64,000 bases of DNA, from the NCBI RefSeq assembly GCF_054482595.1, contig NZ_CM137008.1; one strand, given 5' to 3'. How positions within the stretch are numbered: the stretch's first letter is position 1; each line of letters opens with the position of its first letter. The notes under the pieces are model-generated. The model saw nothing but the letters and a program-made list of their open reading frames with translations, searched no databases and was not told the origin of the DNA. The position numbers were made by a program, and so were the translations under genes. Below are positions 44,132 to 46,244 of the stretch, one piece after another.

Positions 44132-45228
44132 TCATAGAGAATAATAAAGTGAGTTCACATAGCTATTTATGGGTTCTTTTCCAATCCTTTATATTTTATT
44201 ACAAATTCATGCTCCAAAGTTGGGACGGTGATGAACAGATTGTAAATGTAATATCTATCATCTTAACCTTACTTCTTTTATGTGGTACGATTAGTGCTTT
44301 TATAATCTCAAATATTAAAGAGAAATGTATATTTTTAATAATTTTCATTTTTGTTGCCTTGAACATAATTATAGCAGATAACAAATCTGTCTTTTGGATG
44401 GTGACGGCGTTCACTTTCTTGATACTCTTTTCAACGTTAACCATTAAAAATAGAATTAGGATATTGGTTTTCTCTTTTATAATTGCATGGTGTTTCTTTT
44501 TACCACTACAAATATTTTTCTCCAATTCCTATACATATATTGATGATCGATATTTAAGATATACATTTGGATTTTTAAATCCTAATGGATTAGGGATGTT
44601 TCTATTACTGTTGCAGACACTTTTATATTATTGGATATGGACTTCAATAAAAGCAACAATAATCGTGAAGCAAATGATTACAATAATTTTGGGTGGATCT
44701 ATCATATGCATAATATTTTTAAGTGAATCAAGAACATATATATTACTATCCTTTTTATTACTGATTTTAACTGTAATATACGGATTTAAGAAATTTAAAT
44801 TCTCATCACGACTTCTATTTATATATTTACTGTTTGTTATGCTTTTACAATGGCTTTCTGTAAAAGGTTTTGAGAATTACCTCATATTTCAAGATATGAA
44901 CGCATATATGAGTGGGCGAGTCTGGTTTTCCTATAATTTACTAAGCCAAATGGGAGAACCGAAATTCTTTATTGGTAGTGATATTTCATTGTATCAACCG
45001 ATAGACTTCTTCTTTATATCACTATTATATAATAATGGGATACTGGCTTCGTTAATATTGTTATACTGTAACTATATCTTTCTAAAAAAGTTAGACAACT
45101 CTACGAAATATGAAAGTATATTAGCTTTTATATTTATTACAGTAAGTTTCACAGAAGCTGTATATAATATTCCTCTGTTGAATTTCTTCTTTTTGCTGTT
45201 ATATAAAAAGGAATTGAGGTTTTCATGA
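44128..45228 (+). CDS. wzy: O-antigen polymerase (Wzy)
   Basis: 366-aa highly hydrophobic multi-TM ORF in an O-antigen cluster with no recognisable catalytic motif; start codon uncertain. Confidence 0.7.
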   Translation: MIIENNKVSSHSYLWVLFQSFIFYYKFMLQSWDGDEQIVNVISIILTLLLLCGTISAFIISNIKEKCIFLIIFIFVALNIIIADNKSVFWMVTAFTFLILFSTLTIKNRIRILVFSFIIAWCFFLPLQIFFSNSYTYIDDRYLRYTFGFLNPNGLGMFLLLLQTLLYYWIWTSIKATIIVKQMITIILGGSIICIIFLSESRTYILLSFLLLILTVIYGFKKFKFSSRLLFIYLLFVMLLQWLSVKGFENYLIFQDMNAYMSGRVWFSYNLLSQMGEPKFFIGSDISLYQPIDFFFISLLYNNGILASLILLYCNYIFLKKLDNSTKYESILAFIFITVSFTEAVYNIPLLNFFFLLLYKKELRFS

Positions 45229-46244
45229 AAGTTGATGCAGTAATCTTATGGGTAGATGGTAATGATCCAAAATGGCAGGAAGAATACAATAAATATTGTA
45301 AGCCGGCCTCTCGAATTGAGAATGGTGTACAAAGATATAGAGATTGGGATACACTACGATATGTAATTCGTGGAATAGAATATAACCTTCCTTGGATTGA
45401 CAAAATACATTTTGTGACATGTGGTCAAAAGCCAAGTTGGATGGTTGGATATCATCCAAAACTCAATTTTGTACATCATAACGATATTTTTGAGAATGAT
45501 ACATTTTTACCCACATTTAATTCAAGTGCAATAGAGTTAAATCTGTCAAGGATAAAGGGATTAAGTGAGAGGTTTATATATTTTAATGATGATATGCTTG
45601 TGCTTAAAAACACTCCTCTTCAGAGGTTTTTTGTAAATGATTTACCGGTGGATTTTTTAATTGAAGCTTTCCCACGGCGTGGGTTATTGTATGAAAAAAT
45701 ACGTTCCAACTCAACTTGGGTTTCAATGATAAATAATTGCACTTCGCTCATAAATAGAGTGTATCACAAGAATAAATATATACAGGATAATCGTAATTTA
45801 TATTATAACATGAACTATGGACGACATGTCATTGCTAATGTACTGGCGTCCCCTTTTAAGCAGTTTTTGGCTTTTAAACACTATCATCATCCTCAAGCAT
45901 ATCTTAAAAAGACATTACAATCCGTTGAGCGTGAGTTCCCAGTGGAGTTTAACTTAACATGCAAATCTAGATTCCGAGAACATGATAATATCTCACAGGC
46001 GTTGTTTAGATATTACCAATTGGTAACTGGTAGTTTTTATCCGTGCTATTATAATGATCATGCCTGTGTTAATGTAGTAAATAAAAAATCTGCAAGCCAG
46101 TGTATTGAAGCTCTTCATCAAAAACGATTTGTGTGTATAAATGATGAGATTAATGACGACTTAGATGATAGTTCAATTTTAATAAATGATATAATTAAAG
46201 AGTTGGATTTGATTCTTCCAAATAAATCAAGTTTTGAGATCTAA
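45225..46244 (+). CDS. Stealth-family hexose-1-phosphate transferase (glycosyl-phosphotransferase)
   Basis: 339-aa ORF; Stealth CR1-like DAVILWVDGNDPKW, CR2-like TLRYVIRGIEYNLPWIDKIHFVT, CR3-like YFNDDM. Confidence 0.75.
   Translation: MKVDAVILWVDGNDPKWQEEYNKYCKPASRIENGVQRYRDWDTLRYVIRGIEYNLPWIDKIHFVTCGQKPSWMVGYHPKLNFVHHNDIFENDTFLPTFNSSAIELNLSRIKGLSERFIYFNDDMLVLKNTPLQRFFVNDLPVDFLIEAFPRRGLLYEKIRSNSTWVSMINNCTSLINRVYHKNKYIQDNRNLYYNMNYGRHVIANVLASPFKQFLAFKHYHHPQAYLKKTLQSVEREFPVEFNLTCKSRFREHDNISQALFRYYQLVTGSFYPCYYNDHACVNVVNKKSASQCIEALHQKRFVCINDEINDDLDDSSILINDIIKELDLILPNKSSFEI

What the first reader, a model, noticed from the sequence alone, without database searches (positions are those of the whole stretch)
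45225..46244. Stealth-family hexose-1-phosphate transferase inside the O-antigen cluster
The 339-aa product carries the conserved Stealth regions (DAVILWVDGNDPKW; TLRYVIRGIEYNLPWIDKIHFVT; YFNDDM) that characterise sugar-1-phosphate transferases such as meningococcal serogroup A/X capsule polymerases and pneumococcal WcwK. In an O-antigen locus this predicts a phosphodiester-linked sugar in the repeat unit, which is uncommon among E. coli O-antigens and changes charge and antigenicity.
Basis: partly seen in the sequence, partly recalled or inferred. Interest (0 to 1): 0.6.

Follow-up and report, generated by a model that had tools for sequence, protein, structure and literature searches.

The report
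Known O160 O-antigen sugar-phosphate transferase

Summary
The ORF at 45225-46244 (+) exists and encodes the 339-aa protein with the quoted motifs. Pfam finds all four Stealth regions (CR2 1e-38, CR1 8e-11, CR3 4e-8, CR4 weak at 0.008). A confident AlphaFold model (pLDDT 92.7) matches only solved Stealth enzymes at the top (M. tuberculosis CpsY, animal GlcNAc-1-phosphotransferase). The residues shown by mutagenesis to be needed in those enzymes are all present. The locus is 99.7-100% identical to the RefSeq-annotated E. coli O160 O-antigen cluster: gnu, galF, JUMPstart/ops, wzx, GT2, GT2, wzy, Stealth, GT2, gnd. The exact protein is already named "Stealth CR1 domain-containing protein" and occurs on 967 public contigs. 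The O160 polysaccharide was published in 2015 as phosphate-containing. A 2023 review lists O160 among six E. coli serogroups in which a phosphodiester joins two monosaccharides. Stealth enzymes in Wzx/Wzy O-antigen loci have precedent (WfgC of O152, H. parainfluenzae 20D), and I found another in the O181 cluster. Most likely the enzyme adds one alpha-hexose(NAc)-1-phosphate from a UDP-sugar to the lipid-linked repeat unit in the cytoplasm. The donor sugar could not be settled, and the enzyme has no reported biochemistry that I found. Verdict: observation confirmed, interpretation supported, already known, low interest.

The parts
45225..46244 (+). Stealth-family hexose(NAc)-1-phosphate transferase gene, 339 aa (RefSeq WP_000861682.1)
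   Evidence: ORF. Pfam CR1-CR4. Fold match to CpsY and GNPTAB. RefSeq name. The exact sequence is on 967 contigs.
45225..45296 (+). Stealth CR1 (aa 1-24), holding the W9-V10-D11-G12 motif at the uridine pocket
   Evidence: Pfam PF17101, E=8.4e-11. W9 and V10 are invariant in A1. GNPTAB Val82 stacks on uracil (PMC9388126). The V10 = Val82 match rests on the shared W-V-x-G motif and my memory of the human sequence, not on a printed alignment.
45333..45638 (+). Stealth CR2 (aa 37-138), holding S100, I103, E104 and N121-D122-D123 (sugar, ribose and Mg2+ ligands)
   Evidence: Pfam PF11380, E=1.2e-38. Alignment to CpsY E305/N322/D324 and GNPTAB E389/N406/D407/D408. N121, D122 and D123 are invariant in A1.
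45885..46010 (+). Stealth CR3 (aa 221-262), holding H221 (proposed general base) and R251 (beta-phosphate clamp)
   Evidence: Pfam PF17102, E=4e-8. H221 and R251 are invariant in A1. They lie 30 residues apart, as do GNPTAB H956 and R986. R251 aligns with CpsY R419.
46119..46238 (+). Stealth CR4 (aa 299-338), holding the C304-I-N306-D307 motif and the C-terminal KSSFE
   Evidence: Pfam PF17103 is weak, E=0.0081. C304 and D307 are >=90% conserved and E338 is invariant in A1. The region aligns to GNPTAB 'FVCLND'.
38480..39475 (+). [quoted passage not shown]
   Evidence: RefSeq annotation of the identical locus. PMC7685785 deduces GalNAc as the initial sugar of O160 from gnu.
39718..40611 (+). 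galF, the 5' boundary of the O-antigen cluster
40842..40880 (+). JUMPstart-like element with the ops octamer GGCGGTAG (40872-40879), upstream of wzx
   Evidence: The role in RfaH-dependent antitermination is established knowledge, not tested here.
40961..42208 (+). wzx, the O160-family flippase
42198..43199 (+). GT2-family glycosyltransferase
43199..44131 (+). GT2/GT-A glycosyltransferase
44128..45228 (+). wzy, the O160-family O-antigen polymerase. Its TGA stop overlaps the Stealth ATG (ATGA).
46251..47069 (+). GT2-family glycosyltransferase (EpsE-like), whose homologue travels with the Stealth gene in the related loci L002 and L005
47218..48624 (+). gnd, the 3' boundary of the O-antigen cluster

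Best explanation
The gene encodes a soluble, cytoplasmic, single-domain Stealth-family phosphotransferase that belongs to the Wzx/Wzy-dependent E. coli O160 O-antigen pathway. WecA and Gnu start the repeat unit as Und-PP-GalNAc. Three GT2 (inverting) glycosyltransferases add three sugars. The Stealth enzyme makes one transfer of an alpha-D-hexose(NAc)-1-phosphate from a UDP-sugar onto a hydroxyl of the growing lipid-linked unit and releases UMP. This creates the sugar-1-P-sugar phosphodiester reported for O160. The chemistry is inferred by homology to GNPTAB: Mg2+ is held by D123 and the CR4 Asn306, R251 clamps the beta-phosphate, and H221 deprotonates the acceptor hydroxyl for a one-step in-line attack. 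The C1-O bond is not broken, so the alpha configuration of the donor is kept. The finished unit is flipped by Wzx and polymerised by Wzy. Shown here: family membership, fold, conserved catalytic residues, locus identity and gene content. Taken from the literature: phosphate in O160, GalNAc as the first sugar, and one GlcNAc in the unit. Inferred: single addition, the acceptor, and the donor. My estimate for the donor is UDP-GlcNAc about 0.5, UDP-Glc or UDP-Gal about 0.5.
For: All four Stealth regions are found. Solved relatives match by sequence: CpsY 1.4e-30 and GNPTAB 2e-27. The AF2 model has pLDDT 92.7 and pTM 0.91. Its 13 best PDB matches are all Stealth enzymes (E 7e-24 to 5e-19), and the next class, retaining GT-A transferases, starts at 1e-4. 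Residues needed for activity in CpsY (E305, N322, D324, R419; PMC10668966) and GNPTAB (E389, D407, D408, H956, R986, N1151; PMC9388126) correspond to E104, N121, D122, D123, H221, R251 and N306. Of these, N121, D122, D123, H221 and R251 are invariant in 30 homologues of 37-60% identity. The locus is the O160 cluster. O160 is phosphate-containing, with a phosphodiester between two monosaccharides. The cluster holds no other candidate phosphotransferase, only three GT2 enzymes, wzx and wzy. The N-terminus starts directly with CR1, leaving no room for a signal peptide. Precedents exist: WfgC of O152 and S. dysenteriae 12 is predicted to make alpha-GlcNAc-1-P-6-Glc, and the H. parainfluenzae Stealth protein 20D sits in a Wzy-dependent locus (PMC3989065). 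The O181 cluster, another of the six phosphodiester serogroups, carries a 41%-identical Stealth gene. The gene is 99.9-100% conserved in all 15 complete genomes with this cluster.
Against: No biochemical or genetic test of this protein was found in the held literature. The primary structure paper (Carbohydr Res 2015;417:89) was not readable, so I could not check which sugar carries the phosphate or which hydroxyl accepts it. The CR4 HMM hit is weak (E=0.0081). NCBIfam has no model for the protein. The active-site comparison does not discriminate the donor: GNPTAB His959 is Gln224 here, and the Gln992 equivalent is offset by one residue in the pairwise alignment.
Confidence: 0.9

Rival explanations
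1. The mechanism is the same, but the transferred group is Glc-1-P or Gal-1-P rather than GlcNAc-1-P. The single GlcNAc of the unit is then added by one of the GT2 enzymes.
For: The cluster has no sugar-synthesis genes, so UDP-Glc, UDP-Gal and UDP-GlcNAc are all available housekeeping donors. H. parainfluenzae strain 20 has a 'glucose phosphate' in an O-unit made with a Stealth protein. GNPTAB His959, a GlcNAc contact, is Gln224 here.
Against: The biochemically studied Stealth enzymes read here use UDP-GlcNAc: GNPTAB, and CpsY in vitro. The E. coli precedent WfgC is predicted to transfer GlcNAc-1-P. Most GlcNAc-contacting residues of GNPTAB are kept: S100, E104, N121 and H221.
Confidence: 0.45
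2. It is a processive capsule-polymerase-type Stealth enzyme that builds a separate poly(hexose-phosphate) homopolymer, as in meningococcal serogroups A and X, rather than adding one residue to the O unit.
For: The best-studied bacterial Stealth enzymes are capsule polymerases (established knowledge). UniRef names this protein 'capsular biosynthesis protein'.
Against: The gene sits in the middle of a Wzx/Wzy operon, its start overlapping the wzy stop, with no ABC-transporter (kps-type) export genes nearby. O160 is reported as a repeat-unit polysaccharide containing phosphate. The count of one initiating sugar, three GTs and one Stealth enzyme fits a single oligosaccharide-phosphate unit. The same wzy-Stealth-GT2 arrangement recurs in other Wzx/Wzy loci.
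Confidence: 0.03
3. The gene is an inactive or redundant passenger, and the O160 phosphate is installed by an enzyme encoded elsewhere.
For: No direct experiment links this gene to the phosphate. Some O-antigen modifications are encoded outside the cluster (established knowledge).
Against: The ORF is intact and all catalytic residues are conserved. It is 99.9-100% identical in all 15 complete genomes carrying the cluster, and it stays intact in the three whose cluster is IS-disrupted elsewhere. A collinear cluster in another enterobacterium keeps the gene at 60% identity while the flanking genes are 83-92% identical, which suggests long-term retention.
Confidence: 0.03

Closest known systems
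WfgC of E. coli O152 / Shigella dysenteriae type 12, and Stealth protein 20D of Haemophilus parainfluenzae strain 20 (PMC3989065)
   Same: These are single-domain Stealth proteins of about 340 aa, encoded inside Wzx/Wzy-dependent O-antigen clusters. They are predicted to add one sugar-1-phosphate to the repeat unit (alpha-GlcNAc-1-P-6-Glc in O152). The CR1-CR4 positions reported for 20D (5-16, 40-139, 223-271, 308-343) nearly coincide with those found here (1-24, 37-138, 221-262, 299-338).
   Different: The serogroup and the neighbouring transferases differ. The donor and acceptor in O160 were not verified here.
Stealth protein of the E. coli O181 O-antigen cluster (WP_170903128.1)
   Same: It is 41% identical over the full length. 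It lies in a galF-gnd O-antigen cluster of another serogroup listed as having a sugar-P-sugar bridge.
   Different: The O181 gene sits next to galF, beside a GT4 gene and L-FucNAc synthesis genes. Its CR4 reads C-I-C-E-D instead of C-I-N-D-E, and it has His where O160 has Gln258. This may reflect a different donor, which is an inference.
Human, zebrafish and Drosophila GlcNAc-1-phosphotransferase GNPTAB (PDB 7s05, 7s6n, 7sj2, 9bgf, 7dxi)
   Same: The catalytic fold is shared (Foldseek E about 1e-22, TM about 0.7 normalised to the query), as are the catalytic residues. The reaction class is the same: UDP-sugar plus acceptor hydroxyl gives sugar-1-P-O-acceptor plus UMP.
   Different: GNPTAB is a membrane-anchored Golgi enzyme of more than 1200 aa, with three large insertions, proteolytic activation and a gamma subunit. 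Its acceptor is mannose on lysosomal hydrolases. The O160 protein is the bare 339-aa catalytic core.
Mycobacterium tuberculosis CpsY (PDB 8j2n)
   Same: It is the best sequence match (1.4e-30) and fold match (6.6e-24, TM 0.86-0.89 on the target) among solved structures. E305, N322, D324 and R419 are conserved as E104, N121, D123 and R251.
   Different: CpsY has an extra N-terminal 200 aa and was assayed on glucan. Sequence identity is only about 22-24% in the structural alignment.
Meningococcal capsule polymerases CsaB (serogroup A) and CsxA (serogroup X)
   Same: They belong to the Stealth family and carry out hexosamine-1-phosphate transfer (established knowledge; not compared by sequence here).
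   Different: They are processive homopolymerases in ABC-transporter (group 2) capsule loci. The O160 enzyme is placed in a Wzx/Wzy repeat-unit pathway and is inferred to act once per unit.

Membership tests
Stealth protein family (Sperisen et al. 2005; Pfam PF17101/PF11380/PF17102/PF17103) | Four conserved regions, CR1-CR4, in order | tested here: met
   CR1 aa 1-24 (8.4e-11), CR2 37-138 (1.2e-38), CR3 221-262 (4e-8), CR4 299-338 (0.0081, weak on its own), all collinear. The CR4 motif C-x-N-D and the C-terminal SFE are conserved in 30 homologues.
Stealth protein family | Catalytic residues: Mg2+-binding Asp of the N-D-D motif, strictly conserved His and Arg of CR3, and Asn of CR4 | tested here: met
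   N121-D122-D123, H221 and R251 are invariant in A1, and N306 is present. They were mapped through alignments to CpsY and GNPTAB and the mutagenesis data in PMC10668966 and PMC9388126. The spacings match GNPTAB: E-to-D 19 residues, H-to-R 30 residues.
Stealth protein family | Stealth/GNPTAB catalytic fold (GT-A-like core) | tested here: met
   AF2 pLDDT 92.7, pTM 0.91. The top 13 Foldseek PDB hits are all CpsY or GNPTAB (E 7e-24 to 5e-19), and the next are GT-A transferases at 1e-4.
Stealth protein family | Hexose(NAc)-1-phosphate transferase activity (UMP released, phosphodiester formed) | not testable with these tools
   This needs an enzyme assay. Indirect support: the O160 polysaccharide is reported to contain a phosphodiester between two monosaccharides.
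E. coli O160 O-antigen gene cluster | Sequence identity to the serogroup-specific wzx and wzy and to the whole cluster | tested here: met
   Window 40900-47100 is 99.7-100% identical over 100% of its length to 14 complete genomes whose wzx and wzy are annotated 'O160 family'. A 15th matches at 99.8% over the 73% it retains. These include NCTC11023.
E. coli O160 O-antigen gene cluster | Location between galF and gnd, with a JUMPstart/ops element and low G+C | tested here: met
   galF at 39718-40611, ops GGCGGTAG at 40872, gnd at 47218-48624, and G+C 28-32%.
E. coli O160 O-antigen gene cluster | Gene content agrees with the chemical repeat unit | tested here: inconclusive
   gnu, three GT2 genes and one Stealth gene predict a GalNAc-initiated unit of five sugars and one phosphate built from housekeeping UDP-sugars. 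The review confirms one GalNAc (the initial sugar), one GlcNAc and phosphate. The full structure paper was not readable.
Group 2 capsule polymerases of the Stealth type (CsaB/CsxA-like) | Encoded in an ABC-transporter (kps/ctr-type) capsule locus and acting as a processive homopolymerase | tested here: not met
   The genomic context is Wzx/Wzy with no ABC-transporter export genes in the cluster. Processivity itself was not testable.

The most novel reading that the evidence does not exclude
The most novel reading still open does not concern the chromosomal gene but a relative of it. A mobile, IS-flanked Wzx/Wzy cluster carries a 56%-identical Stealth gene, a 46%-identical GT2 and a 30%-identical wzy. 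It lies on small plasmids of E. coli, Enterobacter and Citrobacter. In two of the three E. coli hosts it co-occurs with an IS-disrupted chromosomal O160 cluster. This would fit a plasmid-borne, phosphate-containing O-antigen replacing or competing with O160. For the chromosomal gene itself, the only open novelty is that it would be an uncharacterised single-addition Stealth enzyme acting on a lipid-linked acceptor, which might be useful for chemoenzymatic synthesis of phosphodiester-linked glycans.
Probability: 0.15. Interest if true: 0.45.

Novelty: already known. Interest (0 to 1): 0.1.

Why it matters
A glycosyl-phosphate bridge adds a negative charge and an acid-labile bond to the O-antigen. 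Both affect antigenicity, serotyping and glycoconjugate-vaccine chemistry, and only six of about 182 E. coli serogroups are reported to have one. For O160, however, the chemistry was published in 2015 and the gene is already annotated, so this finding only confirms that the sequence-based call is right. What remains of practical value is that no Stealth enzyme of the single-addition, Wzy-pathway type appears to have been characterised biochemically in the literature I could search. This small soluble protein would be a convenient model for one.

Tried and rejected
NCBIfam gave no family for the Stealth protein, so it added nothing beyond Pfam.

I tried three ways to obtain the O160 repeat-unit structure: the PubMed id, the DOI and the supplements of the Liu et al. 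review. Full-text searches for 'O160' with structure terms returned only two reviews. The identity of the phosphorylated sugar therefore stays unverified.

A search for 'O160' together with 'Stealth' found no paper. A search for Stealth capsule-polymerase mechanism papers was mostly noise.

I tried to infer the donor sugar from the GNPTAB GlcNAc-contact residues. Most contacts are conserved both in O160 and in the O181 homologue. The differences (Gln224 in place of His959; O181 has His and C-I-C-E-D where O160 has Gln258 and C-I-N-D-E) cannot be interpreted without characterised references, so I rejected this as a basis for a firm call.

The promoter and terminator scan of the cluster was at background (41 sites against 40.7 expected, and 6 against 4.5). 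It gives no evidence for an internal promoter in front of the Stealth gene.

I considered the capsule-polymerase and pseudogene readings and rejected both (see the rival explanations).

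Full report
**Observation.** The mechanical ORF list contains an ATG-initiated ORF at 45225..46244 on the + strand, encoding 339 aa. The reverse strand is closed by many stops. The ATG overlaps the TGA of the upstream gene (ATGA), and a GAGG lies 6-7 nt upstream, which is the usual arrangement for translationally coupled operon genes.

**What the protein is.** Pfam finds all four Stealth regions in order: CR1 residues 1-24 (8.4e-11), CR2 37-138 (1.2e-38), CR3 221-262 (4e-8) and CR4 299-338 (0.0081, weak by itself). NCBIfam has no model for it. Among solved structures, the best sequence matches are M. 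tuberculosis CpsY (8j2n, 1.4e-30) and the catalytic domains of zebrafish, human and Drosophila GlcNAc-1-phosphotransferase (2e-27 to 3e-20). A search of 5.8 billion proteins returned 1873 homologues. Nearly all are single-domain proteins of about 330-350 aa carrying Stealth Pfam domains. The nearest non-identical relative is 60% identical, and Providencia proteins are 51-52% identical.

I aligned 30 homologues of 37-60% identity (A1) and used that alignment for AlphaFold2. The model is confident (mean pLDDT 92.7, pTM 0.91, no segment below 50). A Foldseek search of the PDB gave 13 top hits that are all CpsY or GNPTAB (E 6.6e-24 to 5e-19). The next class, retaining GT-A transferases such as glycogenin and LgtC, begins at 1e-4.

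**Catalytic residues.** The CpsY paper shows that E305A, N322A and D324A reduce activity and that R419K/Q abolish it (PMC10668966). The GNPTAB paper assigns these roles:
- Glu389, Asn406, His956, His959, Gln992 and Ser385 bind GlcNAc.
- Asp407 contacts the ribose and the second Mg2+.
- Asp408 and Asn1151 coordinate the catalytic Mg2+.
- Arg986 holds the beta-phosphate.
- His956 is the probable base that deprotonates the acceptor hydroxyl, in a one-step transfer without a covalent intermediate. His956, Arg986 and Asp408 are strictly conserved in the family (PMC9388126).

Through the HMMER alignments these residues map to S100, E104, N121, D122, D123, H221, R251 and N306 of the O160 protein. The spacings agree: E-to-D is 19 residues and H-to-R is 30 residues in both proteins. 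In A1, N121, D122, D123, H221 and R251 are invariant, and E104, S100, C304 and D307 are at least 90% conserved. Only His959 differs (Gln224 here), and the Gln992 equivalent (Gln258) is offset by one residue in the pairwise alignment. Assigning N306 to Asn1151 rests on the aligned 'C-L-N-D' motif and on my memory of the human numbering. Stealth membership is therefore met on domains, fold and catalytic residues. Only the enzymatic activity is untestable here.

**What the locus is.** Window 40900-47100 is 99.7-100% identical over its full length to 14 complete E. coli genomes. A 15th matches at 99.8% over the 73% of the query it retains. In these genomes RefSeq names the flippase and polymerase 'O160 family' and names this ORF 'Stealth CR1 domain-containing protein' (WP_000861682.1). 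They include NCTC11023. The exact protein sequence is on 967 public contigs under that name or as 'capsular biosynthesis protein'.

The gene order is as follows:
- gnu: 38480-39475
- galF: 39718-40611
- a JUMPstart-like element with the ops octamer GGCGGTAG at 40872
- wzx: 40961-42208
- GT2: 42198-43199
- GT2/GT-A: 43199-44131
- wzy: 44128-45228
- Stealth: 45225-46244
- GT2: 46251-47069
- gnd: 47218-48624

The island has 28-32% G+C, against about 53-55% in the colanic-acid genes upstream. The three other transferases all hit GT2-type models. There are no sugar-nucleotide synthesis genes and no other phosphotransferase in the cluster.

**What the literature says.** The review of E. coli O antigens cites Perepelov et al. 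[quoted passage not shown] It also states that O160 has one GlcNAc and one GalNAc, with GalNAc deduced as the initial sugar because gnu lies upstream of galF (PMC7685785). A 2023 Chemical Reviews article lists O84, O152, O160, O172, O173 and O181 as the only six of 182 serogroups whose repeat units have two monosaccharides joined by a phosphodiester (PMC9912281). The H. parainfluenzae O-antigen paper documents the precedent. WfgC of E. coli O152 and S. dysenteriae 12 is predicted to make alpha-GlcNAc-(1-P-6)-alpha-Glc. Its 37%-identical relative 20D is recognised there as a Stealth protein that forms the phosphate linkage of a Wzy-dependent O unit (PMC3989065). The primary O160 paper is not held, so I could not read the exact repeat unit.

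**Concordance within E. coli.** A low-stringency DNA search with the O160 gene found Stealth genes in eight genomes with 'O181 family' wzx and wzy. The O181 protein is 41% identical. Using the O181 gene as a query found a further homologue, annotated only as 'hypothetical protein', in an unlabelled L-FucNAc-type cluster (NZ_AP025209.2). That is compatible with O172 from my memory of its structure, but I did not verify this. Two of the six phosphodiester serogroups are thus shown here to carry a Stealth gene in the O-antigen cluster, and the literature covers a third (O152).

**Mechanism.** The best explanation is a single-addition hexose(NAc)-1-phosphate transferase acting in the cytoplasm on the Und-PP-linked O unit. 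The protein has no signal peptide, because CR1 starts at residue 1. It uses a UDP-sugar and is co-transcribed and probably co-translated with wzy. One initiating GalNAc, three GT2 products and one Stealth product predict five sugars and one phosphate, built from housekeeping UDP-Glc, UDP-Gal and UDP-GlcNAc. The GT2 enzymes are inverting, so beta-linkages are expected from them. The Stealth reaction leaves the anomeric carbon untouched, so an alpha-glycosyl phosphate is expected. The donor is unresolved. I put UDP-GlcNAc at about 0.5, because the characterised enzymes I read about and the O152 precedent use it, and because most GlcNAc contacts of GNPTAB are kept. Glc-1-P or Gal-1-P remain plausible.

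The capsule-polymerase reading is rejected by context: a Wzx/Wzy operon, no ABC-transporter genes, and a reported repeat-unit polymer. The inactive-passenger reading is rejected by the intact catalytic residues, by 99.9-100% conservation in all 15 genomes, and by retention of the gene at 60% identity in a collinear cluster of another enterobacterium whose flanking gnu, galF and gnd are 83-92% identical.

**Novelty and score.** I rate it as already known, with an interest of about 0.1. The only open points are the biochemistry of this enzyme subclass and the donor and acceptor identity.

**Side observations.** A related IS26/IS1-flanked Wzx/Wzy cluster sits on small plasmids in three E. coli genomes and, at 99.7% identity, in Enterobacter cloacae and Citrobacter plasmids. 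Its proteins are 56% (Stealth), 46% (GT2) and 30% (wzy) identical to those of O160. Two of the three E. coli hosts are among the three genomes whose chromosomal O160 cluster is disrupted by IS elements. This is suggestive but may reflect clonal relatedness, and I did not pursue it further. Other minor points are listed under Noticed in passing.

Noticed in passing
L005 (NZ_CP182147.1, pCUWW10B) 3616-10125; also NZ_CP196745.1, NZ_CP180599.1, AP022136.1, NZ_CP056402.1: An IS26/IS1-flanked Wzx/Wzy-type polysaccharide cluster lies on small plasmids (GT2, GT, flippase-like, wzy-like, Stealth, GT). Its Stealth, GT2 and wzy products are 56%, 46% and 30% identical to the O160 proteins. It occurs in 3 of 5426 E. 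coli genomes and, at 99.7% identity, in Enterobacter cloacae and Citrobacter plasmids. Two of the three E. coli hosts (CUWW10, FXCREC004) carry an IS-disrupted chromosomal O160 cluster. This may be a plasmid-borne replacement O-antigen, or the co-occurrence may be clonal.
   Followed up: partly
L002 (GCA_965119215.1, contig CBCPKK010000001.1) 3719-9850: A collinear cluster wzx-GT2-GT2-wzy-Stealth-GT2 lies between galF and gnd, with gnu upstream, in another enterobacterial genome. The cluster proteins are 47-60% identical to those of O160, while gnu, galF and gnd are 83-92% identical. This looks like an old, cross-species O160-like O-antigen form. The organism was not identified.
   Followed up: partly
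H8, H9 and H15 (NZ_CM135826.1, NZ_CP196743.1, NZ_CP182145.1): Three of the 15 complete genomes with the O160 cluster have it interrupted by insertion sequences. Two have ISApl1 in wzx. One has IS1X2 and retains only 73% of the cluster. The Stealth gene itself stays intact in all three.
   Followed up: no
L007 (NZ_AP025209.2) 8893-9909: A Stealth homologue (67.6% nt identity to the O181 gene over 85% of its length) is annotated only as 'hypothetical protein'. It lies in an unlabelled O-antigen cluster with L-FucNAc synthesis genes and an acyltransferase. The cluster may be O172, and this is an annotation gap.
   Followed up: no
window 48771-49280 (+): An IS200/IS605-family tnpA remnant, split by an internal stop into a 41-aa and a 125-aa ORF, lies between gnd and ugd. 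A strong hairpin sits at 49362-49380. RefSeq annotates it as a pseudogene in the identical strains.
   Followed up: partly
window 42104-42111 (+); also 14630, 15217, 51042 (+) and 3751 (-): The ops octamer GGCGGTAG occurs 6 times in the window against 1.2 expected, and no shuffle reached 6. Besides the expected copies upstream of wza (15217) and wzx (40872), one lies inside the 3' end of the AT-rich wzx gene, about 90 nt before the first GT2 start. It could be chance or a second RfaH loading site.
   Followed up: no
window 45225-46244: NCBIfam release 20 has no model that hits this protein at E<=0.01, although RefSeq names it from the Pfam CR1 domain. Single-domain O-antigen Stealth transferases seem to lack a curated family model.
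   Followed up: no
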